Source of the DNA: Mytilus trossulus
Taxonomy: Eukaryota
Direction: 5' to 3'
Length of the DNA stretch: 64,000 nt
Assembly (NCBI RefSeq): GCF_036588685.1
Contig: NC_086377.1
Coordinates: 45,694,001-45,758,000 of the forward strand
This document shows, one piece after another, positions 20,588 through 63,142 of this stretch. The first letter of the stretch is position 1. Every line of letters begins with the position of its first letter. Under the pieces are notes generated by a model. That model worked only from the letters and a program-made list of their open reading frames with translations. It searched no databases and was not told the origin of the DNA. The position numbers were made by a program, and so were the translations under genes.

Positions 20588-23010
20588 ATGGTCTTCATTC
20601 TTTCAAAGTAGAGATACCTGAAATCAGACTGTAAAATAGATAATCGCTGGAAAATACCAGTTCAATAATTTTGTGATAACTTTGGGGTGCTTTTTTACTA
20701 CTGACTACTATAAGATTTGAACTATGTAACAGTTACTTCAAAAGGGTCCGTTCCTCCCTATAGAAAGCGTTCACCGGATTTACCTTAGTTTGCATAATGG
20801 AAAGAGGACCTGTCGGATTCACCCACTGTTGGTTAATTTGGCACAGAGCATCAGATTCACTCGCGGTTTGCCTAGTTGAAAAGAGGGTACCAGATGTGTG
20901 CCACCAGATGTGTGCCATGTTGGAATGAGTGCACGGATTCACCTGAGGGTTGTCGATTGGAAGGGGAGCACATAATTAACACGAGGATTGCCGATCGGAT
21001 AAAAGACAATTGATTCACCACCTGTATGCCGAGTTGGAAATAGGACATCAGATTCTCCCGTTGTTTGCCGAGTTAAAAAGAGGTCACCGGATTAACCCGA
21101 GTATTGTCAATTGGTGTGGCAAATGCTGAATACCTTGCAGGCAATTTCTATAATCTGTCGTTGATTACGATCTTAATAACGAGCTATGGACTACTATACA
21201 AATCCTTGATGGATTAATGCAACTCGGACTGTTGTACTCCTTAATCCTAACATTCATAATGTATCGTGATCCTTTAACATGGGGCAGGCATAATACAGAC
21301 AAACAAATAAACAGCTAAAAAGGAGGGACGGAAGATACCAGAGGGACAGTCACGACTAATATGTTCTATTACAAAATCACATACACCACAGTATACATTA
21401 AATGATTTTGATGTTATTATATGCACTTGCCCTCGGATAAAATGCTATATGCATTAATCTATCGAATGTCACTGATGTTAGAAATAAAATACACCAAATA
21501 TATTATTCAGAATTGTCATTGTTCATAATTATGCACGCCGAACTTTCATGAAGACACTAGTTCTACTCCTTACTTACATGTCTCAGGTTCCGTCTTCTCG
21601 GCTTTATAGTTGTATTTAGTCCTGGTCGGATCAATTGACAGGATCTCTTGGGCTCCAAATTGATGTACAACAATAAAAATATGCTACAGGTTAGAGTCGA
21701 ACGCACCTTTCACGAGTGTTGTCGGGCTTTTGACTCATACAGTATAGGATAACTAGAGGCGGATATAATACAATACTTACAAAACAAAAAGATCCCTGTT
21801 TCAAGCCCCCGTGTGTTTTCATGCTCTTGAACTTTATATCATGATTTTGACTTTTTAAACTGTTGATGAGAAAAATATGAAAAATTCTATCCCCCCTCCC
21901 GCATTTCCACTTACATACATAAAAAAAACGTGATGTTTTTACTTGAATTAAAAATCAAACTGGAAGGAAAAGAGCAGGGTAATAATTCATAGAACAGACA
22001 AGGTGCAGTGATCAATATTTTAGGTATATTTTTGAACACAGAGAGATAAACCCTGGCACCCATTTGCCAAATAAAAATTTCTTTTTCCTATATGTGCCTT
22101 CCGGAACTTTATGTTTTGAATTGTAGTTTCACTTTACGTATTCGGTATTTATTCTAATTTAAGCTCCACGTGGTAAAAATCACGTGATACAGGAATATAG
22201 TATCTTGGAGTTAGACTACTTCTTTCTTTTCGGGCGGGGACTCCAAGCATACAACATGTATGTGTATAAAGGCAGTGGAGATTTTCTGATTAAACGAAGA
22301 AAGTTGCTGGTCCGGTACACGAGTAGATCAGTTAGAAAGCAAGGTTTTAATTCTAATTATATTGGAAAGCTTAATTCGAGCCATGAGTTTTAATTTTTTG
22401 TGATTGGAGGAGACAAATGTAAAAAGTCACGAAAAAGATATGCAGGATTCGACATACTCCTCAGAGCGAATTCATTGCAATTGTTTCTCGCAACGTTCGT
22501 ATGTTATCTTGCAGTTTGCATCTGTCGCTGATGATTATGTCTTTACATGAGACTGACTGACTGAATGAGATGGGTTACCATCACACCTGCAAAAGAATGT
22601 ACTTTAGCAAATAATGACTCTATGTTTAAGAGTCATGTTGATGTTTTATGCATTTCTTGTCATTTAGTCAGTTGTTATGACATTATCCCCTCGGGATATA
22701 AGTTAGATACGATAACGTAATTCCCTGTGTTTGCCACTCTCTACGATTCCACTCAATTGCTAAAAATGGTCGCACCGGAGCCTTTCACTCCTGGCACACG
22801 TATAAAGCGCGTTCTCAACAATTTATTTGTATCTTATTCAAGATTGACCTCTACGTAAAGAGAGGAGACGCGTTACATTTGAAATTATGTCATCAAATGA
22901 ATTTGTTTTTACAGCAATGCCCACTATATATACGTGGATGATATGATTATGTGTCGCGAATTCCACTGTCCTCTTATCAATTGAAAACCTTGAATGAGGC
23001 AAAAAAGAAA

Positions 23011-23081
23011 TGCATCGGCCGGGAATCGAACCCGGGCCGCCCGCGTGGCAGGCGAGCATTCTACCACTGAACCACCGATGC
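23011..23081 (-). tRNA. trnG-GCC: tRNA-Gly(GCC)
   Basis: GCATCGGTGGTTCAGTGGTAGAATGCTCGCCTGCCACGCGGGCGGCCCGGGTTCGATTCCCGGCCGATGCA; full cloverleaf, followed by TTTCTTTTTT terminator. Confidence 0.97.
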
Positions 23082-23740
23082 TTATGACTACCTCATGTTA
23101 AACTTGATCATATAAGGACACATGTTACCTGATATGTATGGTATAAATGCATGTTAATATGATACTGAAATTGTCGGTAGAAACCCGGCACAAATAAATG
23201 TGAAAAGAGGAAATCGGCGATAATGTAGATCCCATTTGTTCAGCTGCAGCATAATCTCAGCTCGAGGTTGAAATATAGTGACCAGAAAAACGCTGTATAA
23301 TTTGAAACTTAGATATATATATAAGCTTAAACCCGCGTAGTTAAAACAAAAAAATAATCGTGATCTTAAAGGGGGAGGGATAAGTAACCTCAAGTCTTTC
23401 AAAGAAGACCTAATCGCAAAACGAAAAGTTCTGTAATTTGACACAATTTCTGTTGTGGTTTCCATGACAGACAACTTGAACTCGGTAAAGTCGACATATG
23501 GTACATGCTAATTTTCATACTCCATATGTAATTATAAGCTAAATGCATAACTTTGCCCTTTACCAATTGTACGTTTCTGCATCTAATATTTACCGACTGG
23601 TATAGTTTTGTGAGCTTTGAATACTCTCCTTTCATGCTGTCAGCTGAATCACAGTTATCATATGTTGACACAATCATAAATGTATTAGGCTCGGTAAGGA
23701 CTCTTTTATATATAGCTTAAATTAAGCAAGTTATACTAAG

Positions 23741-23812
23741 TCCGATGTGGTCTAGTGGTTAGGATTTCTGGTTTTCACCCAGACGGCCCGGGTTCGATTC
23801 CCGGCATCGGAG
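23741..23812 (+). tRNA. trnE-TTC: tRNA-Glu(TTC)
   Basis: TCCGATG/CATCGGA acceptor stem, anticodon arm TCTGG-TT TTC AC-CCAGA, GGTTCGATTCC T loop, T6 terminator downstream. Confidence 0.97.
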
Positions 23813-24435
23813 CTTTAATTTTTTGTGATTGGAGGAGACAAATGTAAAAAGTCACGAAAAAGATATGCAGGATTCGACATACTCCTCAGAGCGAATTCAT
23901 TGCAATTGTTTCTCGCAACGTTCGTATGTTATCTTGCAGTTTGCATCTGTCGCTGATGATTATGTCTTTACATGAGACTGACTGACTGAATGAGATGGGT
24001 TACCATCACACCTGCAAAAGAATGTACTTTAGCAAATAATGACTCTATGTTTAAGAGTCATGTTGATGTTTTATGCATTTCTTGTCATTTAGTCAGTTGT
24101 TATGACATTATCCCCTCGGGATATAAGTTAGATACGATAACGTAATTCCCTGTGTTTGCCACTCTCTACGATTCCACTCAATTGCTAAAAATGGTCGCAC
24201 CGGAGCCTTTCACTCCTGGCACACGTATAAAGCGCGTTCTCAACAATTTATTTGTATCTTATTCAAGATTGACCTCTACGTAAAGAGAGGAGACGCGTTA
24301 CATTTGAAATTATGTCATCAAATGAATTTGTTTTTACAGCAATGCCCACTATATATACGTGGATGATATGATTATGTGTCGCGAATTCCACTGTCCTCTT
24401 ATCAATTGAAAACCTTGAATGAGGCAAAAAAGAAA

Positions 24436-24506
24436 TGCATCGGCCGGGAATCGAACCCGGGCCGCCCGCGTGGCAGGCGAGCATTCTACCACTGAACCAC
24501 CGATGC
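24436..24506 (-). tRNA. trnG-GCC: tRNA-Gly(GCC)
   Basis: identical array copy. Confidence 0.97.
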
Positions 24507-25165
24507 TTATGACTACCTCATGTTAAACTTGATCATATAAGGACACATGTTACCTGATATGTATGGTATAAATGCATGTTAATATGATACTGAAATTGTC
24601 GGTAGAAACCCGGCACAAATAAATGTGAAAAGAGGAAATCGGCGATAATGTAGATCCCATTTGTTCAGCTGCAGCATAATCTCAGCTCGAGGTTGAAATA
24701 TAGTGACCAGAAAAACGCTGTATAATTTGAAACTTAGATATATATATAAGCTTAAACCCGCGTAGTTAAAACAAAAAAATAATCGTGATCTTAAAGGGGG
24801 AGGGATAAGTAACCTCAAGTCTTTCAAAGAAGACCTAATCGCAAAACGAAAAGTTCTGTAATTTGACACAATTTCTGTTGTGGTTTCCATGACAGACAAC
24901 TTGAACTCGGTAAAGTCGACATATGGTACATGCTAATTTTCATACTCCATATGTAATTATAAGCTAAATGCATAACTTTGCCCTTTACCAATTGTACGTT
25001 TCTGCATCTAATATTTACCGACTGGTATAGTTTTGTGAGCTTTGAATACTCTCCTTTCATGCTGTCAGCTGAATCACAGTTATCATATGTTGACACAATC
25101 ATAAATGTATTAGGCTCGGTAAGGACTCTTTTATATATAGCTTAAATTAAGCAAGTTATACTAAG

Positions 25166-25237
25166 TCCGATGTGGTCTAGTGGTTAGGATTTCTGGTTTT
25201 CACCCAGACGGCCCGGGTTCGATTCCCGGCATCGGAG
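25166..25237 (+). tRNA. trnE-TTC: tRNA-Glu(TTC)
   Basis: identical array copy. Confidence 0.97.
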
Positions 25238-25860
25238 CTTTAATTTTTTGTGATTGGAGGAGACAAATGTAAAAAGTCACGAAAAAGATATGCAGGATTC
25301 GACATACTCCTCAGAGCGAATTCATTGCAATTGTTTCTCGCAACGTTCGTATGTTATCTTGCAGTTTGCATCTGTCGCTGATGATTATGTCTTTACATGA
25401 GACTGACTGACTGAATGAGATGGGTTACCATCACACCTGCAAAAGAATGTACTTTAGCAAATAATGACTCTATGTTTAAGAGTCATGTTGATGTTTTATG
25501 CATTTCTTGTCATTTAGTCAGTTGTTATGACATTATCCCCTCGGGATATAAGTTAGATACGATAACGTAATTCCCTGTGTTTGCCACTCTCTACGATTCC
25601 ACTCAATTGCTAAAAATGGTCGCACCGGAGCCTTTCACTCCTGGCACACGTATAAAGCGCGTTCTCAACAATTTATTTGTATCTTATTCAAGATTGACCT
25701 CTACGTAAAGAGAGGAGACGCGTTACATTTGAAATTATGTCATCAAATGAATTTGTTTTTACAGCAATGCCCACTATATATACGTGGATGATATGATTAT
25801 GTGTCGCGAATTCCACTGTCCTCTTATCAATTGAAAACCTTGAATGAGGCAAAAAAGAAA

Positions 25861-25931
25861 TGCATCGGCCGGGAATCGAACCCGGGCCGCCCGCGTGGCA
25901 GGCGAGCATTCTACCACTGAACCACCGATGC
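25861..25931 (-). tRNA. trnG-GCC: tRNA-Gly(GCC)
   Basis: identical array copy. Confidence 0.97.
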
Positions 25932-26590
25932 TTATGACTACCTCATGTTAAACTTGATCATATAAGGACACATGTTACCTGATATGTATGGTATAAATGC
26001 ATGTTAATATGATACTGAAATTGTCGGTAGAAACCCGGCACAAATAAATGTGAAAAGAGGAAATCGGCGATAATGTAGATCCCATTTGTTCAGCTGCAGC
26101 ATAATCTCAGCTCGAGGTTGAAATATAGTGACCAGAAAAACGCTGTATAATTTGAAACTTAGATATATATATAAGCTTAAACCCGCGTAGTTAAAACAAA
26201 AAAATAATCGTGATCTTAAAGGGGGAGGGATAAGTAACCTCAAGTCTTTCAAAGAAGACCTAATCGCAAAACGAAAAGTTCTGTAATTTGACACAATTTC
26301 TGTTGTGGTTTCCATGACAGACAACTTGAACTCGGTAAAGTCGACATATGGTACATGCTAATTTTCATACTCCATATGTAATTATAAGCTAAATGCATAA
26401 CTTTGCCCTTTACCAATTGTACGTTTCTGCATCTAATATTTACCGACTGGTATAGTTTTGTGAGCTTTGAATACTCTCCTTTCATGCTGTCAGCTGAATC
26501 ACAGTTATCATATGTTGACACAATCATAAATGTATTAGGCTCGGTAAGGACTCTTTTATATATAGCTTAAATTAAGCAAGTTATACTAAG

Positions 26591-26662
26591 TCCGATGTGG
26601 TCTAGTGGTTAGGATTTCTGGTTTTCACCCAGACGGCCCGGGTTCGATTCCCGGCATCGGAG
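26591..26662 (+). tRNA. trnE-TTC: tRNA-Glu(TTC)
   Basis: identical array copy. Confidence 0.97.
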
Positions 26663-27285
26663 CTTTAATTTTTTGTGATTGGAGGAGACAAATGTAAAAA
26701 GTCACGAAAAAGATATGCAGGATTCGACATACTCCTCAGAGCGAATTCATTGCAATTGTTTCTCGCAACGTTCGTATGTTATCTTGCAGTTTGCATCTGT
26801 CGCTGATGATTATGTCTTTACATGAGACTGACTGACTGAATGAGATGGGTTACCATCACACCTGCAAAAGAATGTACTTTAGCAAATAATGACTCTATGT
26901 TTAAGAGTCATGTTGATGTTTTATGCATTTCTTGTCATTTAGTCAGTTGTTATGACATTATCCCCTCGGGATATAAGTTAGATACGATAACGTAATTCCC
27001 TGTGTTTGCCACTCTCTACGATTCCACTCAATTGCTAAAAATGGTCGCACCGGAGCCTTTCACTCCTGGCACACGTATAAAGCGCGTTCTCAACAATTTA
27101 TTTGTATCTTATTCAAGATTGACCTCTACGTAAAGAGAGGAGACGCGTTACATTTGAAATTATGTCATCAAATGAATTTGTTTTTACAGCAATGCCCACT
27201 ATATATACGTGGATGATATGATTATGTGTCGCGAATTCCACTGTCCTCTTATCAATTGAAAACCTTGAATGAGGCAAAAAAGAAA

Positions 27286-27356
27286 TGCATCGGCCGGGAA
27301 TCGAACCCGGGCCGCCCGCGTGGCAGGCGAGCATTCTACCACTGAACCACCGATGC
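27286..27356 (-). tRNA. trnG-GCC: tRNA-Gly(GCC)
   Basis: identical array copy. Confidence 0.97.
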
Positions 27357-28015
27357 TTATGACTACCTCATGTTAAACTTGATCATATAAGGACACATGT
27401 TACCTGATATGTATGGTATAAATGCATGTTAATATGATACTGAAATTGTCGGTAGAAACCCGGCACAAATAAATGTGAAAAGAGGAAATCGGCGATAATG
27501 TAGATCCCATTTGTTCAGCTGCAGCATAATCTCAGCTCGAGGTTGAAATATAGTGACCAGAAAAACGCTGTATAATTTGAAACTTAGATATATATATAAG
27601 CTTAAACCCGCGTAGTTAAAACAAAAAAATAATCGTGATCTTAAAGGGGGAGGGATAAGTAACCTCAAGTCTTTCAAAGAAGACCTAATCGCAAAACGAA
27701 AAGTTCTGTAATTTGACACAATTTCTGTTGTGGTTTCCATGACAGACAACTTGAACTCGGTAAAGTCGACATATGGTACATGCTAATTTTCATACTCCAT
27801 ATGTAATTATAAGCTAAATGCATAACTTTGCCCTTTACCAATTGTACGTTTCTGCATCTAATATTTACCGACTGGTATAGTTTTGTGAGCTTTGAATACT
27901 CTCCTTTCATGCTGTCAGCTGAATCACAGTTATCATATGTTGACACAATCATAAATGTATTAGGCTCGGTAAGGACTCTTTTATATATAGCTTAAATTAA
28001 GCAAGTTATACTAAG

Positions 28016-28087
28016 TCCGATGTGGTCTAGTGGTTAGGATTTCTGGTTTTCACCCAGACGGCCCGGGTTCGATTCCCGGCATCGGAG
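28016..28087 (+). tRNA. trnE-TTC: tRNA-Glu(TTC)
   Basis: identical array copy. Confidence 0.97.
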
Positions 28088-28710
28088 CTTTAATTTTTTG
28101 TGATTGGAGGAGACAAATGTAAAAAGTCACGAAAAAGATATGCAGGATTCGACATACTCCTCAGAGCGAATTCATTGCAATTGTTTCTCGCAACGTTCGT
28201 ATGTTATCTTGCAGTTTGCATCTGTCGCTGATGATTATGTCTTTACATGAGACTGACTGACTGAATGAGATGGGTTACCATCACACCTGCAAAAGAATGT
28301 ACTTTAGCAAATAATGACTCTATGTTTAAGAGTCATGTTGATGTTTTATGCATTTCTTGTCATTTAGTCAGTTGTTATGACATTATCCCCTCGGGATATA
28401 AGTTAGATACGATAACGTAATTCCCTGTGTTTGCCACTCTCTACGATTCCACTCAATTGCTAAAAATGGTCGCACCGGAGCCTTTCACTCCTGGCACACG
28501 TATAAAGCGCGTTCTCAACAATTTATTTGTATCTTATTCAAGATTGACCTCTACGTAAAGAGAGGAGACGCGTTACATTTGAAATTATGTCATCAAATGA
28601 ATTTGTTTTTACAGCAATGCCCACTATATATACGTGGATGATATGATTATGTGTCGCGAATTCCACTGTCCTCTTATCAATTGAAAACCTTGAATGAGGC
28701 AAAAAAGAAA

Positions 28711-28781
28711 TGCATCGGCCGGGAATCGAACCCGGGCCGCCCGCGTGGCAGGCGAGCATTCTACCACTGAACCACCAATGC
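28711..28781 (-). tRNA. trnG-GCC: tRNA-Gly(GCC), C5T variant
   Basis: array copy with g>a at 28777 (U5-G68 wobble in acceptor stem). Confidence 0.95.
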
Positions 28782-29440
28782 TTATGACTACCTCATGTTA
28801 AACTTGATCATATAAGGACACATGTTACCTGATATGTATGGTATAAATGCATGTTAATATGATACTGAAATTGTCGGTAGAAACCCGGCACAAATAAATG
28901 TGAAAAGAGGAAATCGGCGATAATGTAGATCCCATTTGTTCAGCTGCAGCATAATCTCAGCTCGAGGTTGAAATATAGTGACCAGAAAAACGCTGTATAA
29001 TTTGAAACTTAGATATATATATAAGCTTAAACCCGCGTAGTTAAAACAAAAAAATAATCGTGATCTTAAAGGGGGAGGGATAAGTAACCTCAAGTCTTTC
29101 AAAGAAGACCTAATCGCAAAACGAAAAGTTCTGTAATTTGACACAATTTCTGTTGTGGTTTCCATGACAGACAACTTGAACTCGGTAAAGTCGACATATG
29201 GTACATGCTAATTTTCATACTCCATATGTAATTATAAGCTAAATGCATAACTTTGCCCTTTACCAATTGTACGTTTCTGCATCTAATATTTACCGACTGG
29301 TATAGTTTTGTGAGCTTTGAATACTCTCCTTTCATGCTGTCAGCTGAATCACAGTTATCATATGTTGACACAATCATAAATGTATTAGGCTCGGTAAGGA
29401 CTCTTTTATATATAGCTTAAATTAAGCAAGTTATACTAAG

Positions 29441-29512
29441 TCCGATGTGGTCTAGTGGTTAGGATTTCTGGTTTTCACCCAGACGGCCCGGGTTCGATTC
29501 CCGGCATCGGAG
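29441..29512 (+). tRNA. trnE-TTC: tRNA-Glu(TTC)
   Basis: identical array copy. Confidence 0.97.
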
Positions 29513-30135
29513 CTTTAATTTTTTGTGATTGGAGGAGACAAATGTAAAAAGTCACGAAAAAGATATGCAGGATTCGACATACTCCTCAGAGCGAATTCAT
29601 TGCAATTGTTTCTCGCAACGTTCGTATGTTATCTTGCAGTTTGCATCTGTCGCTGATGATTATGTCTTTACATGAGACTGACTGACTGAATGAGATGGGT
29701 TACCATCACACCTGCAAAAGAATGTACTTTAGCAAATAATGACTCTATGTTTAAGAGTCATGTTGATGTTTTATGCATTTCTTGTCATTTAGTCAGTTGT
29801 TATGACATTATCCCCTCGGGATATAAGTTAGATACGATAACGTAATTCCCTGTGTTTGCCACTCTCTACGATTCCACTCAATTGCTAAAAATGGTCGCAC
29901 CGGAGCCTTTCACTCCTGGCACACGTATAAAGCGCGTTCTCAACAATTTATTTGTATCTTATTCAAGATTGACCTCTACGTAAAGAGAGGAGACGCGTTA
30001 CATTTGAAATTATGTCATCAAATGAATTTGTTTTTACAGCAATGCCCACTATATATACGTGGATGATATGATTATGTGTCGCGAATTCCACTGTCCTCTT
30101 ATCAATTGAAAACCTTGAATGAGGCAAAAAAGAAA

Positions 30136-30206
30136 TGCATCGGCCGGGAATCGAACCCGGGCCGCCCGCGTGGCAGGCGAGCATTCTACCACTGAACCAC
30201 CGATGC
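30136..30206 (-). tRNA. trnG-GCC: tRNA-Gly(GCC)
   Basis: identical array copy. Confidence 0.97.
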
Positions 30207-30865
30207 TTATGACTACCTCATGTTAAACTTGATCATATAAGGACACATGTTACCTGATATGTATGGTATAAATGCATGTTAATATGATACTGAAATTGTC
30301 GGTAGAAACCCGGCACAAATAAATGTGAAAAGAGGAAATCGGCGATAATGTAGATCCCATTTGTTCAGCTGCAGCATAATCTCAGCTCGAGGTTGAAATA
30401 TAGTGACCAGAAAAACGCTGTATAATTTGAAACTTAGATATATATATAAGCTTAAACCCGCGTAGTTAAAACAAAAAAATAATCGTGATCTTAAAGGGGG
30501 AGGGATAAGTAACCTCAAGTCTTTCAAAGAAGACCTAATCGCAAAACGAAAAGTTCTGTAATTTGACACAATTTCTGTTGTGGTTTCCATGACAGACAAC
30601 TTGAACTCGGTAAAGTCGACATATGGTACATGCTAATTTTCATACTCCATATGTAATTATAAGCTAAATGCATAACTTTGCCCTTTACCAATTGTACGTT
30701 TCTGCATCTAATATTTACCGACTGGTATAGTTTTGTGAGCTTTGAATACTCTCCTTTCATGCTGTCAGCTGAATCACAGTTATCATATGTTGACACAATC
30801 ATAAATGTATTAGGCTCGGTAAGGACTCTTTTATATATAGCTTAAATTAAGCAAGTTATACTAAG

Positions 30866-30937
30866 TCCGATGTGGTCTAGTGGTTAGGATTTCTGGTTTT
30901 CACCCAGACGGCCCGGGTTCGATTCCCGGCATCGGAG
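30866..30937 (+). tRNA. trnE-TTC: tRNA-Glu(TTC)
   Basis: identical array copy. Confidence 0.97.
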
Positions 30938-31560: not shown

Positions 31561-31631
31561 TGCATCGGCCGGGAATCGAACCCGGGCCGCCCGCGTGGCA
31601 GGCGAGCATTCTACCACTGAACCACCGATGC
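31561..31631 (-). tRNA. trnG-GCC: tRNA-Gly(GCC)
   Basis: identical array copy. Confidence 0.97.
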
Positions 31632-50774: not shown

Positions 50775-50846
50775 CTCCGATGCCGGGAATCGAACCCGGG
50801 CCGTCTGGGTGAAAACCAGAAATCCTAACCACTAGACCACATCGGA
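50775..50846 (-). tRNA. trnE-TTC: tRNA-Glu(TTC)
   Basis: identical array copy. Confidence 0.97.
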
Positions 50847-51471
50847 CTTACTATAACAAGCTTAATTTAAGCTACATATAAGCAGGTATCGACTGTTTGA
50901 TCACTGTGCTTAAACCATGTTTGTGTCAACATATGATAGGTGTGAGTCTGCATCAAAGTAAATCTTTTCAAAGCTAACCCTGTCTACCTTTCTTACACAA
51001 ACATATAGCAGTAATGTTCTGAAAGTGTATTTCGTTCGATCTTAAAAAAATATAGAAATAATGCAATGGTAATGTACATGCAGGTAGTTTGTCGGCAAAA
51101 TCGCCAACACTAAATACTTTATTACAGTGGCCGTAATTAATGTTCATTTACCGAAATGGATTAGTCAACCACTCCCCCTTTTTACATCTAGATTTCCATT
51201 GTGAAGCGGTTTCAATTAACTGATTACTGACGCGAAACCGACGGCATATACACTAAGCATAGCATTTGAATCACGAGATTATGTCGCAGATTGGCAATTG
51301 AGTAAGTACCAAATGCACATCGTTTGTCTCTTGTCAGACATGTTTTTCGTGTTTCTACACGTTGTACCGACAATGTTGAATAATAAACATGCCATCTATC
51401 ATACATACCATGTAACACGTGGTAATCATGTACTGTCCTTATATGATCTAGTTAGACATACTGTGTTATAA

Positions 51472-51542
51472 GCATCGGTGGTTCAGTGGTAGAATGCTCG
51501 CCTGCCACGCGGGCGGCCCGGGTTCGATTCCCGGCCGATGCA
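51472..51542 (+). tRNA. trnG-GCC: tRNA-Gly(GCC)
   Basis: identical array copy. Confidence 0.97.
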
Positions 51543-51879
51543 TTTCTTTTTTCTTATCTTTGTCACTTTCTAAAGTACCAACTGGCAATGTAGAGTGAGG
51601 ATAGCACAGTTTTATAGTTTCAATACTTAACAATAATGGACAGTTGTTTGAAATTAATTGTGGGGATAGGTTACAACATTCAAACAACTACTACAGTCTT
51701 TTTGAAAATTTCCTTTTACAAATGTAGGAATATCAAATGATGTAACTATTTCCTATCATGTCAGTTGAAAGTCGGAAAAGTCTAAACTAAATACACTTCT
51801 CATCTGTAACTTTTTCTTTCCTCATGACATGAAAATAATACAACAACAGTAATGTGATAAAGATGATCAAAAACTAAAG

Positions 51880-51951
51880 CTCCGATGCCGGGAATCGAAC
51901 CCGGGCCGTCTGGGTGAAAACCAGAAATCCTAACCACTAGACCACATCGGA
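51880..51951 (-). tRNA. trnE-TTC: tRNA-Glu(TTC)
   Basis: identical array copy. Confidence 0.97.
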
Positions 51952-52576
51952 CTTACTATAACAAGCTTAATTTAAGCTACATATAAGCAGGTATCGACTG
52001 TTTGATCACTGTGCTTAAACCATGTTTGTGTCAACATATGATAGGTGTGAGTCTGCATCAAAGTAAATCTTTTCAAAGCTAACCCTGTCTACCTTTCTTA
52101 CACAAACATATAGCAGTAATGTTCTGAAAGTGTATTTCGTTCGATCTTAAAAAAATATAGAAATAATGCAATGGTAATGTACATGCAGGTAGTTTGTCGG
52201 CAAAATCGCCAACACTAAATACTTTATTACAGTGGCCGTAATTAATGTTCATTTACCGAAATGGATTAGTCAACCACTCCCCCTTTTTACATCTAGATTT
52301 CCATTGTGAAGCGGTTTCAATTAACTGATTACTGACGCGAAACCGACGGCATATACACTAAGCATAGCATTTGAATCACGAGATTATGTCGCAGATTGGC
52401 AATTGAGTAAGTACCAAATGCACATCGTTTGTCTCTTGTCAGACATGTTTTTCGTGTTTCTACACGTTGTACCGACAATGTTGAATAATAAACATGCCAT
52501 CTATCATACATACCATGTAACACGTGGTAATCATGTACTGTCCTTATATGATCTAGTTAGACATACTGTGTTATAA

Positions 52577-52647
52577 GCATCGGTGGTTCAGTGGTAGAAT
52601 GCTCGCCTGCCACGCGGGCGGCCCGGGTTCGATTCCCGGCCGATGCA
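52577..52647 (+). tRNA. trnG-GCC: tRNA-Gly(GCC)
   Basis: identical array copy. Confidence 0.97.
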
Positions 52648-52984
52648 TTTCTTTTTTCTTATCTTTGTCACTTTCTAAAGTACCAACTGGCAATGTAGAG
52701 TGAGGATAGCACAGTTTTATAGTTTCAATACTTAACAATAATGGACAGTTGTTTGAAATTAATTGTGGGGATAGGTTACAACATTCAAACAACTACTACA
52801 GTCTTTTTGAAAATTTCCTTTTACAAATGTAGGAATATCAAATGATGTAACTATTTCCTATCATGTCAGTTGAAAGTCGGAAAAGTCTAAACTAAATACA
52901 CTTCTCATCTGTAACTTTTTCTTTCCTCATGACATGAAAATAATACAACAACAGTAATGTGATAAAGATGATCAAAAACTAAAG

Positions 52985-53056
52985 CTCCGATGCCGGGAAT
53001 CGAACCCGGGCCGTCTGGGTGAAAACCAGAAATCCTAACCACTAGACCACATCGGA
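52985..53056 (-). tRNA. trnE-TTC: tRNA-Glu(TTC)
   Basis: identical array copy. Confidence 0.97.
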
Positions 53057-53681
53057 CTTACTATAACAAGCTTAATTTAAGCTACATATAAGCAGGTATC
53101 GACTGTTTGATCACTGTGCTTAAACCATGTTTGTGTCAACATATGATAGGTGTGAGTCTGCATCAAAGTAAATCTTTTCAAAGCTAACCCTGTCTACCTT
53201 TCTTACACAAACATATAGCAGTAATGTTCTGAAAGTGTATTTCGTTCGATCTTAAAAAAATATAGAAATAATGCAATGGTAATGTACATGCAGGTAGTTT
53301 GTCGGCAAAATCGCCAACACTAAATACTTTATTACAGTGGCCGTAATTAATGTTCATTTACCGAAATGGATTAGTCAACCACTCCCCCTTTTTACATCTA
53401 GATTTCCATTGTGAAGCGGTTTCAATTAACTGATTACTGACGCGAAACCGACGGCATATACACTAAGCATAGCATTTGAATCACGAGATTATGTCGCAGA
53501 TTGGCAATTGAGTAAGTACCAAATGCACATCGTTTGTCTCTTGTCAGACATGTTTTTCGTGTTTCTACACGTTGTACCGACAATGTTGAATAATAAACAT
53601 GCCATCTATCATACATACCATGTAACACGTGGTAATCATGTACTGTCCTTATATGATCTAGTTAGACATACTGTGTTATAA

Positions 53682-53752
53682 GCATCGGTGGTTCAGTGGT
53701 AGAATGCTCGCCTGCCACGCGGGCGGCCCGGGTTCGATTCCCGGCCGATGCA
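53682..53752 (+). tRNA. trnG-GCC: tRNA-Gly(GCC)
   Basis: identical array copy. Confidence 0.97.
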
Positions 53753-54085
53753 TTTCTTTTTTCTTATCTTTGTCACTTTCTAAAGTACCAACTGGCAATG
53801 TAGAGTGAGGATAGCACAGTTTTATAGTTTCAATACTTAACAATAATGGACAGTTGTTTGAAATTAATTGTGGGGATAGGTTACAACATTCAAACAACTA
53901 CTACAGTCTTTTTGAAAATTTCCTTTTACAAATGTAGGAATATCAAATGATGTAACTATTTCCTATCATGTCAGTTGAAAGTCGGAAAAGTCTAAACTAA
54001 ATACACTTCTCATCTGTAACTTTTTCTTTCCTCATGACATGTATTACAACAACAGTAATGTGATAAAGATGATCAAAAACTAAAG

Positions 54086-54157
54086 CTCCGATGCCGGGAA
54101 TCGAACCCGGGCCGTCTGGGTGAAAACCAGAAATCCTAACCACTAGACCACATCGGA
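54086..54157 (-). tRNA. trnE-TTC: tRNA-Glu(TTC)
   Basis: identical array copy. Confidence 0.97.
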
Positions 54158-54782
54158 CTTACTATAACAAGCTTAATTTAAGCTACATATAAGCAGGTAT
54201 CGACTGTTTGATCACTGTGCTTAAACCATGTTTGTGTCAACATATGATAGGTGTGAGTCTGCATCAAAGTAAATCTTTTCAAAGCTAACCCTGTCTACCT
54301 TTCTTACACAAACATATAGCAGTAATGTTCTGAAAGTGTATTTCGTTCGATCTTAAAAAAATATAGAAATAATGCAATGGTAATGTACATGCAGGTAGTT
54401 TGTCGGCAAAATCGCCAACACTAAATACTTTATTACAGTGGCCGTAATTAATGTTCATTTACCGAAATGGATTAGTCAACCACTCCCCCTTTTTACATCT
54501 AGATTTCCATTGTGAAGCGGTTTCAATTAACTGATTACTGACGCGAAACCGACGGCATATACACTAAGCATAGCATTTGAATCACGAGATTATGTCGCAG
54601 ATTGGCAATTGAGTAAGTACCAAATGCACATCGTTTGTCTCTTGTCAGACATGTTTTTCGTGTTTCTACACGTTGTACCGACAATGTTGAATAATAAACA
54701 TGCCATCTATCATACATACCATGTAACACGTGGTAATCATGTACTGTCCTTATATGATCTAGTTAGACATACTGTGTTATAA

Positions 54783-54853
54783 GCATCGGTGGTTCAGTGG
54801 TAGAATGCTCGCCTGCCACGCGGGCGGCCCGGGTTCGATTCCCGGCCGATGCA
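54783..54853 (+). tRNA. trnG-GCC: tRNA-Gly(GCC)
   Basis: identical array copy. Confidence 0.97.
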
Positions 54854-55186
54854 TTTCTTTTTTCTTATCTTTGTCACTTTCTAAAGTACCAACTGGCAAT
54901 GTAGAGTGAGGATAGCACAGTTTTATAGTTTCAATACTTAACAATAATGGACAGTTGTTTGAAATTAATTGTGGGGATAGGTTACAACATTCAAACAACT
55001 ACTACAGTCTTTTTGAAAATTTCCTTTTACAAATGTAGGAATATCAAATGATGTAACTATTTCCTATCATGTCAGTTGAAAGTCGGAAAAGTCTAAACTA
55101 AATACACTTCTCATCTGTAACTTTTTCTTTCCTCATGACATGTATTACAACAACAGTAATGTGATAAAGATGATCAAAAACTAAAG

Positions 55187-55258
55187 CTCCGATGCCGGGA
55201 ATCGAACCCGGGCCGTCTGGGTGAAAACCAGAAATCCTAACCACTAGACCACATCGGA
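55187..55258 (-). tRNA. trnE-TTC: tRNA-Glu(TTC)
   Basis: identical array copy. Confidence 0.97.
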
Positions 55259-55883
55259 CTTACTATAACAAGCTTAATTTAAGCTACATATAAGCAGGTA
55301 TCGACTATTTGATCACTGTGCTTAAACCATGTTTGTGTCAACATATGATAGGTGTGAGTCTGCATCAAAGTAAATCTTTTCAAAGCTAACCCTGTCTACC
55401 TTTCTTACACAAACATATAGCAGTAATGTTCTGAAAGTGTATTTCGTTCGATCTTAAAAAAATAAAGAAATAATGCAATGGTAATGTACATGCAGGTAGT
55501 TTGTCGGCAAAATCGCCAACACTAAATACTTTATTACAGTGGCCGTAATTAATGTTCATTTACCGAAATGGATTAGTCAACCACTCCCCCTTTTTACATC
55601 TAGATTTCCATTGTGAAGCGGTTTCAATTAACTGATTACTGACGCGAAACCGACGGCATATACACTAAGCATAGCATTTGAATCACGAGATTATGTCGCA
55701 GATTGGCAATTGAGTAAGTACCAAATGCACATCGTTTGTCTCTTGTCAGACATGTTTTTCGTGTTTCTACACGTTGTACCGACAATGTTGAATAATAAAC
55801 ATGCCATCTATCATACATACCATGTAACACGTGGTAATCATGTACTGTCCTTATATGATCTAGTTAGACATACTGTGTTATAA

Positions 55884-55954
55884 GCATCGGTGGTTCAGTG
55901 GTAGAATGCTCGCCTGCCACGCGGGCGGCCCGGGTTCGATTCCCGGCCGATGCA
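55884..55954 (+). tRNA. trnG-GCC: tRNA-Gly(GCC)
   Basis: identical array copy. Confidence 0.97.
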
Positions 55955-56287
55955 TTTCTTTTTTCTTATCTTTGTCACTTTCTAAAGTACCAACTGGCAA
56001 TGTAGAGTGAGGATAGCACAGTTTTATAGTTTCAATACTTAACAATAATGGACAGTTGTTTGAAATTAATTGTGGGGATAGGTTACAACATTCAAACAAC
56101 TACTACAGTCTTTTTGAAAATTTCCTTTTACAAATGTAGGAATATCAAATGATGTAACTATTTCCTATCATGTCAGTTGAAAGTCGGAAAAGTCTAAACT
56201 AAATACACTTCTCATCTGTAACTTTTTCTTTCCTCATGACATGTATTACAACAACAGTAATGTGATAAAGATGATCAAAAACTAAAG

Positions 56288-56359
56288 CTCCGATGCCGGG
56301 AATCGAACCCGGGCCGTCTGGGTGAAAACCAGAAATCCTAACCACTAGACCACATCGGA
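56288..56359 (-). tRNA. trnE-TTC: tRNA-Glu(TTC)
   Basis: identical array copy. Confidence 0.97.
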
Positions 56360-56984
56360 CTTACTATAACAAGCTTAATTTAAGCTACATATAAGCAGGT
56401 ATCGACTGTTTGATCACTGTGCTTAAACCATGTTTGTGTCAACATATGATAGGTGTGAGTCTGCATCAAAGTAAATCTTTTCAAAGCTAACCCTGTCTAC
56501 CTTTCTTACACAAACATATAGCAGTAATGTTCTGAAAGTGTATTTCGTTCGATCTTAAAAAAATATAGAAATAATGCAATGGTAATGTACATGCAGGTAG
56601 TTTGTCGGCAAAATCGCCAACACTAAATACTTTATTACAGTGGCCGTTATTAATGTTCATTTACCGAAATGGATTAGTCAACCACTCCCCCTTTTTACAT
56701 CTAGATTTCCATTGTGAAGCGGTTTCAATTAACTGATTACTGACGCGAAACCGACGGCATATACACTAAGCATAGCATTTGAATCACGAGATTATGTCGC
56801 AGATTGGCAATTGAGTAAGTACCAAATGCACATCGTTTGTCTCTTGTCAGACATGTTTTTCGTGTTTCTACACGTTGTACCGACAATGTTGAATAATAAA
56901 CATGCCATCTATCATACATACCATGTAACACGTGGTAATCATGTACTGTCCTTATATGATCTAGTTAGACATACTGTGTTATAA

Positions 56985-57055
56985 GCATCGGTGGTTCAGT
57001 GGTAGAATGCTCGCCTGCCACGCGGGCGGCCCGGGTTCGATTCCCGGCCGATGCA
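56985..57055 (+). tRNA. trnG-GCC: tRNA-Gly(GCC)
   Basis: identical array copy. Confidence 0.97.
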
Positions 57056-57388
57056 TTTCTTTTTTCTTATCTTTGTCACTTTCTAAAGTACCAACTGGCA
57101 ATGTAGAGTGAGGATAGCACAGTTTTATAGTTTCAATACTTAACAATAATGGACAGTTGTTTGAAATTAATTGTGGGGATAGGTTACAACATTCAAACAA
57201 CTACTACAGTCTTTTTGAAAATTTCCTTTTACAAATGTAGGAATATCAAATGATGTAACTATTTCCTATCATGTCAGTTGAAAGTCGGAAAAGTCTAAAC
57301 TAAATACACTTCTCATCTGTAACTTTTTCTTTCCTCATGACATGTATTACAACAACAGTAATGTGATAAAGATGATCAAAAACTAAAG

Positions 57389-57460
57389 CTCCGATGCCGG
57401 GAATCGAACCCGGGCCGTCTGGGTGAAAACCAGAAATCCTAACCACTAGACCACATCGGA
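57389..57460 (-). tRNA. trnE-TTC: tRNA-Glu(TTC)
   Basis: identical array copy. Confidence 0.97.
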
Positions 57461-58085
57461 CTTACTATAACAAGCTTAATTTAAGCTACATATAAGCAGG
57501 TATCGACTGTTTGATCACTGTGCTTAAACCATGTTTGTGTCAACATATGATAGGTGTGAGTCTGCATCAAAGTAAATCTTTTCAAAGCTAACCCTGTCTA
57601 CCTTTCTTACACAAACATATAGCAGTAATGTTCTGAAAGTGTATTTCGTTCGATCTTAAAAAAATATAGAAATAATGCAATGGTAATGTACATGCAGGTA
57701 GTTTGTCGGCAAAATCGCCAACACTAAATACTTTATTACAGTGGCCGTAATTAATGTTCATTTACCGAAATGGATTAGTCAACCACTCCCCCTTTTTACA
57801 TCTAGATTTCCATTGTGAAGCGGTTTCAATTAACTGATTACTGACGCGAAACCGACGGCATATACACTAAGCATAGCATTTGAATCACGAGATTATGTCG
57901 CAGATTGGCAATTGAGTAAGTACCAAATGCACATCGTTTGTCTCTTGTCAGACATGTTTTTCGTGTTTCTACACGTTGTACCGACAATGTTGAATAATAA
58001 ACATGCCATCTATCATACATACCATGTAACACGTGGTAATCATGTACTGTCCTTATATGATCTAGTTAGACATACTGTGTTATAA

Positions 58086-58156
58086 GCATCGGTGGTTCAG
58101 TGGTAGAATGCTCGCCTGCCACGCGGGCGGCCCGGGTTCGATTCCCGGCCGATGCA
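58086..58156 (+). tRNA. trnG-GCC: tRNA-Gly(GCC)
   Basis: identical array copy. Confidence 0.97.
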
Positions 58157-58489
58157 TTTCTTTTTTCTTATCTTTGTCACTTTCTAAAGTACCAACTGGC
58201 AATGTAGAGTGAGGATAGCACAGTTTTATAGTTTCAATACTTAACAATAATGGACAGTTGTTTGAAATTAATTGTGGGGATAGGTTACAACATTCAAACA
58301 ACTACTACAGTCTTTTTGAAAATTTCCTTTTACAAATGTAGGAATATCAAATGATGTAACTATTTCCTATCATGTCAGTTGAAAGTCGGAAAAGTCTAAA
58401 CTAAATACACTTCTCATCTGTAACTTTTTCTTTCCTCATGACATGTATTACAACAACAGTAATGTGATAAAGATGATCAAAAACTAAAG

Positions 58490-58561
58490 CTCCGATGCCG
58501 GGAATCGAACCCGGGCCGTCTGGGTGAAAACCAGAAATCCTAACCACTAGACCACATCGGA
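58490..58561 (-). tRNA. trnE-TTC: tRNA-Glu(TTC)
   Basis: identical array copy. Confidence 0.97.
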
Positions 58562-59187
58562 CTTACTATAACAAGCTTAATTTAAGCTACATATAAGCAG
58601 GTATCGACTGTTTGATCACTGTGCTTAAACCATGTTTGTGTCAACATATGATAGGTGTGAGTCTGCATCAAAGTAAATCTTTTCAAAGCTTACCCTGTCT
58701 ACCTTTCTTACACAAACATATAGCAGTAATGTTCTGAAAGTGTATTTCGTTCGATCTTAAAAAAAATAAAGAAATAATGCAATGGTAATGTACATGCAGG
58801 TAGTTTGTCGGCAAAATCGCCAACACTAAATACTTTATTACAGTGGCCGTAATTAATGTTCATTTACCGAAATGGATTAGTCAACCACTCCCCCTTTTTA
58901 CATCTAGATTTCCATTGTGAAGCGGTTTCAATTAACTGATTACTGACGCGAAACCGACGGCATATACACTAAGCATAGCATTTGAATCACGAGATTATGT
59001 CGCAGATTGGCAATTGAGTAAGTACCAAATGCACATCGTTTGTCTCTTGTCAGACATGTTTTTCGTGTTTCTACACGTTGTACCGACAATGTTGAATAAT
59101 AAACATGCCATCTATCATACATACCATGTAACACGTGGTAATCATGTACTGTCCTTATATGATCTAGTTAGACATACTGTGTTATAA

Positions 59188-59258
59188 GCATCGGTGGTTC
59201 AGTGGTAGAATGCTCGCCTGCCACGCGGGCGGCCCGGGTTCGATTCCCGGCCGATGCA
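59188..59258 (+). tRNA. trnG-GCC: tRNA-Gly(GCC)
   Basis: identical array copy. Confidence 0.97.
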
Positions 59259-59591
59259 TTTCTTTTTTCTTATCTTTGTCACTTTCTAAAGTACCAACTG
59301 GCAATGTAGAGTGAGGATAGCACAGTTTTATAGTTTCAATACTTAACAATAATGGACAGTTGTTTGAAATTAATTGTGGGGATAGGTTACAACATTCAAA
59401 CAACTACTACAGTCTTTTTGAAAATTTCCTTTTACAAATGTAGGAATATCAAATGATGTAACTATTTCCTATCATGTCAGTTGAAAGTCAGAAAAGTCTA
59501 AACTAAATACACTTCTCATCTGTAACTTTTTCTTTCCTCATGACATGTATTACAACAACAGTAATGTGATAAAGATGATCAAAAACTAAAG

Positions 59592-59663
59592 CTCCGATGC
59601 CGGGAATCGAACCCGGGCCGTCTGGGTGAAAACCAGAAATCCTAACCACTAGACCACATCGGA
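59592..59663 (-). tRNA. trnE-TTC: tRNA-Glu(TTC)
   Basis: identical array copy. Confidence 0.97.
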
Positions 59664-60288
59664 CTTACTATAACAAGCTTAATTTAAGCTACATATAAGC
59701 AGGTATCGACTGTTTGATCACTGTGCTTAAACCATGTTTGTGTCAACATATGATAGGTGTGAGTCTGCATCAAAGTAAATCTTTTCAATGCTAACCCTGT
59801 CTACCTTTCTTACACAAACATATAGCAGTAATGTTCTGAAAGTGTATTTCGTTCGATCTTAAAAAAATAAAGAAATAATGCAATGGTAATGTACATGCAG
59901 GTAGTTTGTCGGCAAAATCGCCAACACTAAATACTTTATTACAGTGGCCGTAATTAATGTTCATTTACCGAAATGGATTAGTCAACCACTCCCCCTTTTT
60001 ACATCTAGATTTCCATTGTGAAGCGGTTTCAATTAACTGATTACTGACGCGAAACCGACGGCATATACACTAAGCATAGCATTTGAATCACGAGATTATG
60101 TCGCAGATTGGCAATTGAGTAAGTACCAAATGCACATCGTTTGTCTCTTGTCAGACATGTTTTTCGTGTTTCTACACGTTGTACCGACAATGTTGAATAA
60201 TAAACATGCCATCTATCATACATACCATGTAACACGTGGTAATCATGTACTGTCCTTATATGATCTAGTTAGACATACTGTGTTATAA

Positions 60289-60359
60289 GCATCGGTGGTT
60301 CAGTGGTAGAATGCTCGCCTGCCACGCGGGCGGCCCGGGTTCGATTCCCGGCCGATGCA
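60289..60359 (+). tRNA. trnG-GCC: tRNA-Gly(GCC)
   Basis: identical array copy. Confidence 0.97.
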
Positions 60360-60696
60360 TTTCTTTTTTCTTATCTTTGTCACTTTCTAAAGTACCAACT
60401 GGCAATGTAGAGTGAGGATAGCACAGTTTTATAGTTTCAATACTTAACAATAATGGACAGTTGTTTGAAATTAATTGTGGGGATAGGTTACAACATTCAA
60501 ACAACTACTACAGTCTTTTTGAAAATTTCCTTTTACAAATGTAGGAATATCAAATGATGTAACTATTTCCTATCATGTCAGTTGAAAGTCGGAAAAGTCT
60601 AAACTAAATACACTTCTCATCTGTAACTTTTTCTTTCCTCATGACATGAAAATAATACAACAACAGTAATGTGATAAAGATGATCAAAAACTAAAG

Positions 60697-60768
60697 CTCC
60701 GATGCCGGGAATCGAACCCGGGCCGTCTGGGTGAAAACCAGAAATCCTAACCACTAGACCACATCGGA
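60697..60768 (-). tRNA. trnE-TTC: tRNA-Glu(TTC)
   Basis: identical array copy. Confidence 0.97.
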
Positions 60769-61393
60769 CTTACTATAACAAGCTTAATTTAAGCTACATA
60801 TAAGCAGGTATCGACTGTTTGATCACTGTGCTTAAACCATGTTTGTGTCAACATATGATAGGTGTGAGTCTGCATCAAAGTAAATCTTTTCAAAGCTAAC
60901 CCTGTCTACCTTTCTTACACAAACATATAGCAGTAATGTTCTGAAAGTGTATTTCGTTCGATCTTAAAAAAATATAGAAATAATGCAATGGTAATGTACA
61001 TGCAGGTAGTTTGTCGGCAAAATCGCCAACACTAAATACTTTATTACAGTGGCCGTAATTAATGTTCATTTACCGAAATGGATTAGTCAACCACTCCCCC
61101 TTTTTACATCTAGATTTCCATTGTGAAGCGGTTTCAATTAACTGATTACTGACGCGAAACCGACGGCATATACACTAAGCATAGCATTTGAATCACGAGA
61201 TTATGTCGCAGATTGGCAATTGAGTAAGTACCAAATGCACATCGTTTGTCTCTTGTCAGACATGTTTTTCGTGTTTCTACACGTTGTACCGACAATGTTG
61301 AATAATAAACATGCCATCTATCATACATACCATGTAACACGTGGTAATCATGTACTGTCCTTATATGATCTAGTTAGACATACTGTGTTATAA

Positions 61394-61464
61394 GCATCGG
61401 TGGTTCAGTGGTAGAATGCTCGCCTGCCACGCGGGCGGCCCGGGTTCGATTCCCGGCCGATGCA
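61394..61464 (+). tRNA. trnG-GCC: tRNA-Gly(GCC)
   Basis: identical array copy; last one before the retrotransposon. Confidence 0.97.
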
Positions 61465-61474
61465 TTTCTTTTTT
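61465..61474 (+). terminator. Pol III terminator (T-run) after tRNA-Gly; an equivalent run follows every copy
   Basis: TTTCTTTTTT immediately after the discriminator A. Confidence 0.8.
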
Positions 61475-61693
61475 CTTATCTTTGTCACTTTCTAAAGGGA
61501 CTTCCGGTTTGACTTCCATGATGTGCTGACGTGTTTTCATCAGAGAGTGTAATCCAGAAGATATTTAGTGTACCCGCAGGCCATCAAGTTTTGGTGGCCT
61601 GCTATTGTTGAAGTTGCTGTTCCAAGTCAGGTATATTCTGAACTTTTGATTGTTATTTTTGAATTTTGAGTGACTTTAGACTTCCCCTTCGCC

Positions 61694-63097: not shown

Positions 63098-63142
63098 TTT
63101 TTCACTTTCAAGGGACAACTTATTTGGTATATTTTTTTCTTG

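What the first reader, a model, noticed from the sequence alone, without database searches (positions are those of the whole stretch)
22389..61497. Two separately homogenised tandem arrays of the same Gly(GCC)/Glu(TTC) tRNA pair, inverted relative to each other
Seen: 32 Gly and 30 Glu genes. Both unit types keep the pair head-to-head (659 vs 625 bp apart) and tail-to-tail (623 vs 333/337 bp). The tRNA bodies are identical between arrays, the spacers are largely unalignable, and units within each array are nearly identical. Inference: an old duplication of a two-gene cassette followed by independent concerted evolution, as in 5S rDNA NTS classes. The two classes could be differentially regulated, or could raise tRNA dosage (for example for Gly-rich secreted proteins if this is a mussel; speculative).
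Basis: partly seen in the sequence, partly recalled or inferred. Interest (0 to 1): 0.7.

Follow-up and report, generated by a model that had tools for sequence, protein, structure and literature searches.

The report
tRNA array hosts tRNA-targeting jumping genes
The two repeat types of this glycine/glutamate tRNA gene cluster are real, but their 'inverted' layout sits on an assembly gap and is likely an artefact; the surprise is a jumping gene at the window's edge which, with two sister families, lands at nearly one spot inside tRNA genes for 15 amino acids, likely by docking on the tRNA transcription machinery.

Summary
Counts, spacings and homogeneity are right. But a 100-N scaffold gap lies exactly between the two arrays. 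The window is the left end of a 315-kb, 413-gene cluster; all 4 orientation flips fall on gaps, 0 of 202 gap-free intervals flip, and both gap-free long/short junctions are same-oriented. The inversion is likely an artefact. Both spacer classes are real and lie in runs of three organism labels. Multi-class tRNA arrays are this genome's norm (Asp 127, Gln 415 copies), so a glycine-specific dosage is unsupported.

Array B does not end at 61497: an intact L1/Tx1-type LINE is inserted in a Gly gene. For it and two sister families, 29 of 29 examined 3' junctions lie in Pol III-type genes (26 tRNA, 1 5S, 2 SINE-like heads), mostly right after the D-loop; a control LINE: 0 of 12. In the papers I read, tRNA-targeting elements land beside the gene or keep to one tRNA type; Repbase and Kojima and Fujiwara 2004 could not be checked. 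The scan's notes hold no match, only a related TATA-anchored LINE note.

The parts
22389..40856 (.). Array A: long-family unit, 1425 bp, Gly(GCC) on minus and Glu(TTC) on plus; 13 Gly, 12 Glu; left end of the whole cluster
39424..39497 (+). Glu gene with one extra base in the anticodon loop, in the indel-rich contig end; likely a sequencing error
40857..40956 (.). 100-N scaffold gap that makes the A/B join and the apparent inversion
40957..61497 (.). Array B (first part): short-family unit, 1101/1105 bp, Gly on plus and Glu on minus; 19 Gly, 18 Glu; continues beyond the LINE
61394..61464 (+). Last whole Gly(GCC) gene; it is the target of the LINE, kept whole by the target duplication
61415..61497 (+). 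Upstream copy of the 83-bp target-site duplication (Gly position 22 to 33 bp past the gene); the second copy follows the LINE's poly(A) at G000:C5:45761305
61498..64000 (+). 5' part of LINE family T1 (5807 bp, G000:C5:45755498-45761304), same sense as the Gly gene
61670..63097 (+). T1 ORF1, 475 aa stop to stop (first ATG 61694), two CCHC knuckles, no Pfam match
63098..64000 (+). Start of T1 ORF2 (1293 aa in all): AP-type endonuclease, then reverse transcriptase and a weak zf-RVT match beyond the window

Best explanation
The window is the left end of one 315-kb tandem cluster of a Gly(GCC)/Glu(TTC) tRNA gene pair with a long and a short spacer family, likely all facing one way in the real chromosome (the flip is likely a scaffolding artefact), and it is a landing ground for L1/Tx1-type LINEs that insert inside tRNA genes just after the D-loop, likely guided there by the Pol III transcription complex. 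Shown: gene counts, unit families, gaps, junctions, insertion sites and target duplications. Inferred: an old cassette duplication, then unequal crossing-over that homogenises neighbours and makes block-wise variants (A, C, D long; B, E short); the tRNA bodies stay identical by selection and by exchange at the shared genes. Inferred for the LINEs: the element's protein is held near the start of an assembled Pol III gene (TFIIIB/TFIIIC), the endonuclease nicks at a nearby T-A step about 19-22 bases into the gene, the poly(A) tail primes reverse transcription there, and a second cut 12-15 bp or 80-170 bp downstream sets the target duplication; the long kind leaves a whole gene upstream, as at 61394-61497. 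High copy number would make the loss of single genes cheap.
For: Orientation: 4 of 6 gap-holding Gly-to-Gly intervals flip, 0 of 202 gap-free ones (Fisher p 2e-7). Both gap-free long/short junctions (G000:C5 about 45836048-45837188 and 45991891) join same-oriented units, long then short in one sense. Array A reappears, same strand, at 45955624: 5 of 7 units identical and 2 with one difference. An Asp/Ala pair cluster on the same chromosome shows the same picture: 1399- and 1258-bp classes flipped at a 100-N gap. Homogenisation: recombinant junctions inside spacers and at the Gly gene, a 14-15-kb higher-order duplication that copied two LINE insertions. Single locus: 205 of 205 Gly and 198 of 198 Glu exact 5'-end matches, and 209 of 209 Gly matches at up to 2 mismatches, are in this cluster. 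LINEs: families T1, T2, T4 share 42-44% ORF2 identity. Genome-wide searches with their 3' ends gave 29 junctions in 28 loci; 26 are in tRNA genes, 1 in 5S rRNA, 2 in tRNA-like SINE heads read by eye, all in the gene's sense. Without the 4 discovery copies it is 25 of 25. Targets cover 15 amino acids and 18 anticodons; 23 of the 26 tRNA junctions follow the conserved A after the D-loop GG (numbering mine). Control LINE T3, found the same way: 0 of 12 outside copies at a tRNA gene. For docking over pure sequence reading: the 5S hit at about +27 has no tRNA-type A box; the bases between GG and the cut vary; GGTTA/GGTA-like words occur 13-22 times per array unit but only the D-loop one was used.
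Against: No read spans or refutes the gap; a real inversion hidden in it is not excluded. B-like and E-like short units occur together in 3 of 4 runs, so which blocks share a chromosome is open. Likely co-duplicated copies cut the 29 junctions to about 24 events. Exceptions: His at position 9/10 (2 copies, likely one event), Gly 2 bases later (2 events), 5S one event whose 5' flank is not 5S. No target duplication was found by script in 12 of the 20 re-fetched copies (in some the 5' end was not reached or the duplication was short or imperfect). 3 tandem T2 matches and 10 weak partial T4 matches were not fetched. No protein contact, nick or transcript was observed. The Tx1 label rests on domain layout, not on a tree with named elements.
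Confidence: 0.7

Rival explanations
1. The LINE endonuclease reads the A-box/D-loop sequence itself (T8..A14 G15..G18 G19..A21), as Tx1- and R1-clade enzymes read their targets, with no host protein involved.
For: 23 of 26 tRNA junctions follow G-G-(1 to 4 bases)-A; two SINE-like heads are cut at the same motif; PMC4494074 (passages) says target choice of such elements is mainly set by the endonuclease.
Against: 5S, His and Gly sites do not fit one word; the short word is common in unused spacer DNA; D-loop length varies between targets.
Confidence: 0.35
2. The B and C blocks are the second haplotype's copy of the cluster, placed inside the gap of an A array by scaffolding; the true layouts are A-D-E on one chromosome and C-B on the other.
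For: Like-to-like contig ends give left flank-A, A-D-E, E-right flank; the C-B chain has two ends with no partner and no A-C or B-A junction exists in any contig, although all copies of these genes are in this locus. B/E are 97% and C/D 98.7% alike.
Against: B-like and E-like units occur together in X1, X3 and X7, which needs all three to be heterozygous or pooled; junctions can hide in gaps, and several contig ends lie at the shared Glu gene.
Confidence: 0.4
3. One reading: two arrays truly adjacent and inverted at this spot.
For: The scaffold shows it; scaffolding had some signal to place the contig here.
Against: Every flip in this cluster and the one checked in the Asp/Ala cluster is on a gap; none in 202 gap-free intervals; C-type contigs alternate strand three times across gaps.
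Confidence: 0.1
4. The two spacer families are differentially regulated or were amplified to feed glycine-rich secreted proteins.
For: Distal 5' flanks differ and both classes persist in three organism labels.
Against: Proximal flanks are conserved between classes; Gly:Glu is 1:1; other tRNAs have similar copy numbers in similar multi-class arrays; no RNA evidence.
Confidence: 0.12

Closest known systems
Arabidopsis chromosome 1 tRNA array, 27 three-gene units (PMC2886086; abstract and outline seen)
   Same: Multi-gene tRNA unit in tandem; unequal crossing-over; concerted evolution; copy number thought to drift
   Different: Here about 205 two-gene units in divergent pairs, two deeply split spacer families in one cluster, and LINE insertions
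Entamoeba tRNA arrays (PMC2652664; start of abstract in search listing only) and 5S rDNA spacer classes (titles; Mytilus classes recalled, not confirmed by PMC4106214 passages)
   Same: Identical genes, divergent spacers, homogeneous units
   Different: No short tandem repeats in these spacers; both classes share one locus
Dictyostelium TRE5-A, TRE3, NLTR-A/B and yeast Ty3 (PMC5911963 passages; PMC5006619 abstract)
   Same: Hit tRNA genes of many kinds at a set position; TRE5-A is an AP-endonuclease L1-type element, also hits 5S genes and works through TFIIIB/TFIIIC
   Different: Those land upstream or downstream and spare the gene; these land inside it, in its sense, in an animal with a 1.3-Gb genome
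Dewa and other target-specific non-LTR elements of animals: Dewa in the spacer of tRNA-Leu, Mutsu in 5S, Keno in U2 (PMC3706591, PMC4494074 passages); NeSL-1_TV, LIN15_SM, LIN25_SM in tRNA-Pro, -Arg, -Glu (PMC4640811 passages)
   Same: Multi-copy RNA genes as safe targets; Keno is of the Tx1 clade with an AP endonuclease (Dewa and Mutsu as Tx1 clade: recalled)
   Different: Each of those is described with one target type; T2 alone is in 9 tRNA types at 98-100% element identity and T4 in 10
Dada DNA transposons (PMC3706591, PMC8869645 passages)
   Same: Insert inside tRNA genes, often at the A box
   Different: DDE transposase, 6-7-bp duplications, positions 8-13, each family tied to its own tRNA type in the passages read

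Membership tests
Tandem multigene array under concerted evolution | Head-to-tail units more alike within a block than between blocks | tested here: met
   99.7% and 99.9% within A and B; spacer cores unalignable between them
Tandem multigene array under concerted evolution | Traces of unequal exchange (mosaic junctions, block duplications) | tested here: met
   A/D and D/E junctions, 14-15-kb duplication
Tandem multigene array under concerted evolution | Species-specific homogenised variants | tested here: inconclusive
   X2 holds diverged variants of both classes, but B- and E-like units are shared by three labels; contigs only
Inverted array pair | Strand switch read in continuous sequence | tested here: not met
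   0 of 202 gap-free intervals flip; the window's flip is on a 100-N gap
L1/Tx1-type non-LTR retrotransposon | ORF2 with AP endonuclease, reverse transcriptase and C-terminal zinc motif; ORF1 with CCHC knuckles; poly(A) tail; target duplication | tested here: met
   Pfam PF03372, PF00078, weak PF13966 below cut-off; best solved relatives are L1 endonuclease and ORF2p chains; knuckles, tail and duplication
Tx1 clade (as against other L1-group clades) | Placement with named Tx1 elements in an RT tree | not testable with these tools
   No named Tx1 references among the 120 homologs listed; Repbase not held
TRE5/TRE3-type position-specific elements | Insertion at a distance outside the tRNA gene | tested here: not met
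   All 26 tRNA junctions are inside the gene
TRE5/TRE3-type position-specific elements | Many tRNA types and 5S used as targets | tested here: met
   18 anticodon types and one 5S gene
TRE5/TRE3-type position-specific elements | Contact with TFIIIB, dependence on the B box | not testable with these tools
   Needs a bench assay
Dewa | Insertion in the spacer of tRNA-Leu arrays | tested here: not met
   Junctions are in gene bodies; Leu is 1 of 26

The most novel reading that the evidence does not exclude
A clade of animal L1/Tx1-type LINEs, active now, targets Pol III genes as a class: it docks on the assembled Pol III complex and cuts inside the gene about 20 bases after its start, whatever the tRNA type, and can spare the gene by a long target duplication. 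This would be the first tRNA-type-blind, inside-the-gene, host-protein-guided LINE in animals, and the tandem tRNA arrays of mussels are its habitat.
Probability: 0.35. Interest if true: 0.75.

Novelty: new variant of a known kind. Interest (0 to 1): 0.48.

Why it matters
The arrays themselves are ordinary biology plus an assembly artefact, and a warning that strand flips in scaffolded gene arrays need read support. The LINEs matter more: position-specific targeting of Pol III genes is described for amoebae and yeasts, and animal target-specific elements are described as reading one sequence. Intact, near-identical copies (T1 at the Gly gene and at a 5S gene are 99.98% alike) make the question 'sequence or host protein?' directly testable, and an element that aims at redundant multi-copy genes is of interest as a safe-landing gene-insertion tool.

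Tried and rejected
In that call no contig bridged the B/C junction, and run X3 showed the long class at depth about 2 against thousands for the short class; holes and depths of contigs prove nothing, so neither is used as evidence. Word shares of 0.35-0.38 in 10 runs might mean short class only, but the one such run laid (X7) held both classes, so that reading was dropped. The 105- and 117-aa open frames in the A spacer repeat only because the unit repeats; not pursued. Contamination was rejected (both classes in gap-free contigs with each other and with the flanks). Co-duplication as the cause of the LINE pattern was rejected because targets are different tRNA types. Relaxed ARAGORN calls with long introns near control copies were treated as noise; ARAGORN mislabels the intron-bearing Leu-CAA and Tyr-GTA targets, which I read from the anticodon. 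Literature searches that found no description of a type-blind, inside-the-gene LINE; none on a mussel Gly/Glu array. Supplements of PMC4494074, which list targets of Tx1 families, could not be read and may bear on novelty; so may the 14 oyster L1-Tx1 families in Repbase (PMC10294476 passage) and Kojima and Fujiwara 2004 (seen only as a reference).
Full report
Observation. ARAGORN and Rfam both tRNA genes in the window: 32 Gly(GCC) and 30 Glu(TTC), one Glu with an extra base in the anticodon loop. Array A has a 1425-bp unit, array B a 1101/1105-bp unit; mean identity is 99.7% among 12 A units and 99.9% among 18 B units; 31 of 32 Gly and 29 of 30 Glu bodies are identical; A and B align only over genes, short 5' flanks and terminators. 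What was missed: a run of 100 N at 40857-40956 lies exactly between the arrays, and a LINE starts at 61498.

The whole locus. The window is G000:C5:45694001-45758000. I fetched 100 kb to the left and 300 kb to the right. The cluster spans 45717011-46032153 (315 kb) with 209 Gly and 204 Glu calls and six 100-N gaps. Spacers fall into a long family (A 1425, C 1441, D 1470 bp; 95-99% alike) and a short family (B 1101, E 1104 bp; 97% alike). Contigs run: left flank-A | B...B-C | C | C | C | A-D-E | E-right flank. All exact genome-wide matches to the Gly (205) and Glu (198) 5' halves, and all 209 Gly matches at up to 2 mismatches, are in this cluster: in this assembly it is the only source of these two tRNA sequences.

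The inversion. Of 208 Gly-to-Gly intervals, 6 hold a gap and 4 of those flip; 0 of 202 gap-free intervals flip (p 2e-7). The two gap-free long/short junctions join same-oriented units. Array A resumes on the same strand at 45955624, 5 of 7 units identical to the window's and 2 with one difference. An Asp(GTC)/Ala(AGC) pair cluster at C5:18.44-18.54 Mb has 1399- and 1258-bp classes flipped at a 100-N gap too. I put the artefact reading at about 0.9. Whether the B and C blocks are the other haplotype (about 0.4) is open: their chain has no partner ends in the assembly, but B-like and E-like units occur together in 3 of 4 laid runs.

Reality of the classes. 24 runs were listed, 3 holding half or more of the words, RNA rows at most 0.09. 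On a tRNA-free long/short junction, contigs of X1, X2 and X7 (organism labels A, B, D) cover both classes, X1 with a contig matching the A type letter for letter over 254 bases. The best holder may be the source sample, so X2 and X7 carry the weight. Named homologs of the LINE protein are from Mytilus, so the host is likely a mussel. Asp-GTC (127) and Gln (415) 5' ends occur in similar arrays: such arrays are the usual layout here and give no sign of a glycine-specific boost.

The LINE at 61498. It is 5807 bp, with open ORF1 (475 aa, two CCHC knuckles) and ORF2 (1293 aa; AP endonuclease, reverse transcriptase, weak zf-RVT), a poly(A) tail, and an 83-bp target duplication that starts at about position 22 of the Gly gene, so the gene upstream stays whole. 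Two sister families (T2, T4; ORF2 42-44% identical) sit in Glu genes of array B at one and the same base, T2 with a 15-bp duplication; a short T2 relic sits in a Gly gene of the C block.

Targets genome-wide. I searched the genome with each 3' end: T1 5 matches (all fetched), T2 18 (12 fetched as loci; 3 of the other 6 lie within fetched DNA), T4 22 (12 fetched; 11 reach the 3' end, L085 is an internal partial hit and was dropped). The 28 loci give 29 junctions: 26 in tRNA genes, 1 in 5S rRNA, 2 in SINE-like heads with A- and B-box-like words read by eye. tRNA and 5S flanks match intact genes from the fetched loci with 0-2 mismatches in 30 bases; the two SINE-like flanks do not match (12 and 14 mismatches). 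Targets cover 15 amino acids. 23 of 26 tRNA junctions follow the A after the D-loop GG; exceptions are Gly (2 bases later) and His (position 9/10, two copies). Collapsing likely co-duplicated copies leaves about 24 events. Re-fetching 20 copies showed duplications of 12-14 bp in three, 83-150+ bp with a whole gene upstream in three, shorter or offset ones in two, and none found by script in 12. The control family T3, a different LINE with a (CATT)n tail found in the same array, has 0 of 12 outside copies at a tRNA gene (14 loci fetched of 44 matches).

Mechanism. Shown: the sites, the sense, the duplications. Inferred from established L1-type target-primed reverse transcription: a nick opposite a T-A step and priming on the poly(A) tail. 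Inferred, about 0.6 against 0.35: positioning by the Pol III complex rather than by sequence alone, because the 5S, His and Gly sites fit no single word and the short word is common in unused spacer DNA, and because TRE5-A, an AP-endonuclease element, uses TFIIIB/TFIIIC and also hits 5S genes (PMC5911963, passages). An unchecked scan note on a TATA-anchored LINE in this genome (e1-9825666) points the same way but is no evidence.

Comparison and novelty. The array is a new member of a known kind (PMC2886086, abstract and outline). Papers read as passages: PMC4494074, PMC8869645, PMC3706591, PMC10294476, PMC3747384, PMC4106214, PMC4981973, PMC5911963, PMC4640811; abstract and outline: PMC2886086, PMC5006619. 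In them, elements that hit many tRNA types land outside the gene (amoebae, yeasts), and elements that land inside are tied to one type (Dada, LIN, NeSL) or to a spacer (Dewa). Seven searches found no description of the pattern seen here, but Repbase, Kojima and Fujiwara 2004 and the supplements of PMC4494074 were out of reach, so a prior note is quite possible.

Verdict. The finding as written is real in its counts, wrong in its headline inversion, and ordinary in kind (about 0.2 alone). The LINE at its right border lifts the whole to 0.48: a new variant of a known kind, well supported as a pattern, open as to mechanism.

Noticed in passing
G000:C5:18.44-18.54 Mb (L120-L123): Asp(GTC)/Ala(AGC) divergent pair in two unit classes, 1399 and 1258 bp, flipped at a 100-N gap: the same layout as this finding.
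   Followed up: partly
L082:1790-1870 and L084, G000:C2:47.07-47.11 Mb: tRNA-Met(CAT) genes with a 19-base intron-like insert after the anticodon; introns in animal Met tRNA are unusual as far as I recall.
   Followed up: no
G000:C5:45978680-45988076 (L039, L040): 9.4-kb Gypsy-like LTR element with 1.5-kb LTRs 99.9% alike and a 1586-aa frame, in the spacer of a D unit.
   Followed up: partly
G000:C5:45777697-45783188 and 45819196-45824695: LINE T3 with a (CATT)n tail and a 49-bp target duplication in the B spacer, copied with the array; used as control.
   Followed up: yes
G000:C5:45761305-45786348 versus 45801693-45827858: Higher-order duplication within array B that copied the T2 and T3 insertions.
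   Followed up: partly
G000:C5:45.90-45.92 Mb and 45967820-45970664: Four Glu genes with A in place of U33, and two D units whose Glu gene lacks 13 bases near its 5' end; likely non-working copies spread by crossing-over.
   Followed up: no
run X1 on L024:8617-9110: Contigs suggest a unit that is A-type near Glu and C-type near Gly, not seen in the assembly.
   Followed up: no
gaps at G000:C5:45734857, 45903706, 45955524, 46015751: Six of 12 contig ends lie in or within 50 bp of a Glu gene; unexplained.
   Followed up: no
G000:C5:66.90-66.97 Mb and C31: Gln(CTG)/Gln(TTG) arrays, 415 exact 5'-end matches, hit by T1, T2 and T4.
   Followed up: partly
window 11981-13070: Minisatellite of 39-40-bp units, about 27 copies.
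   Followed up: no
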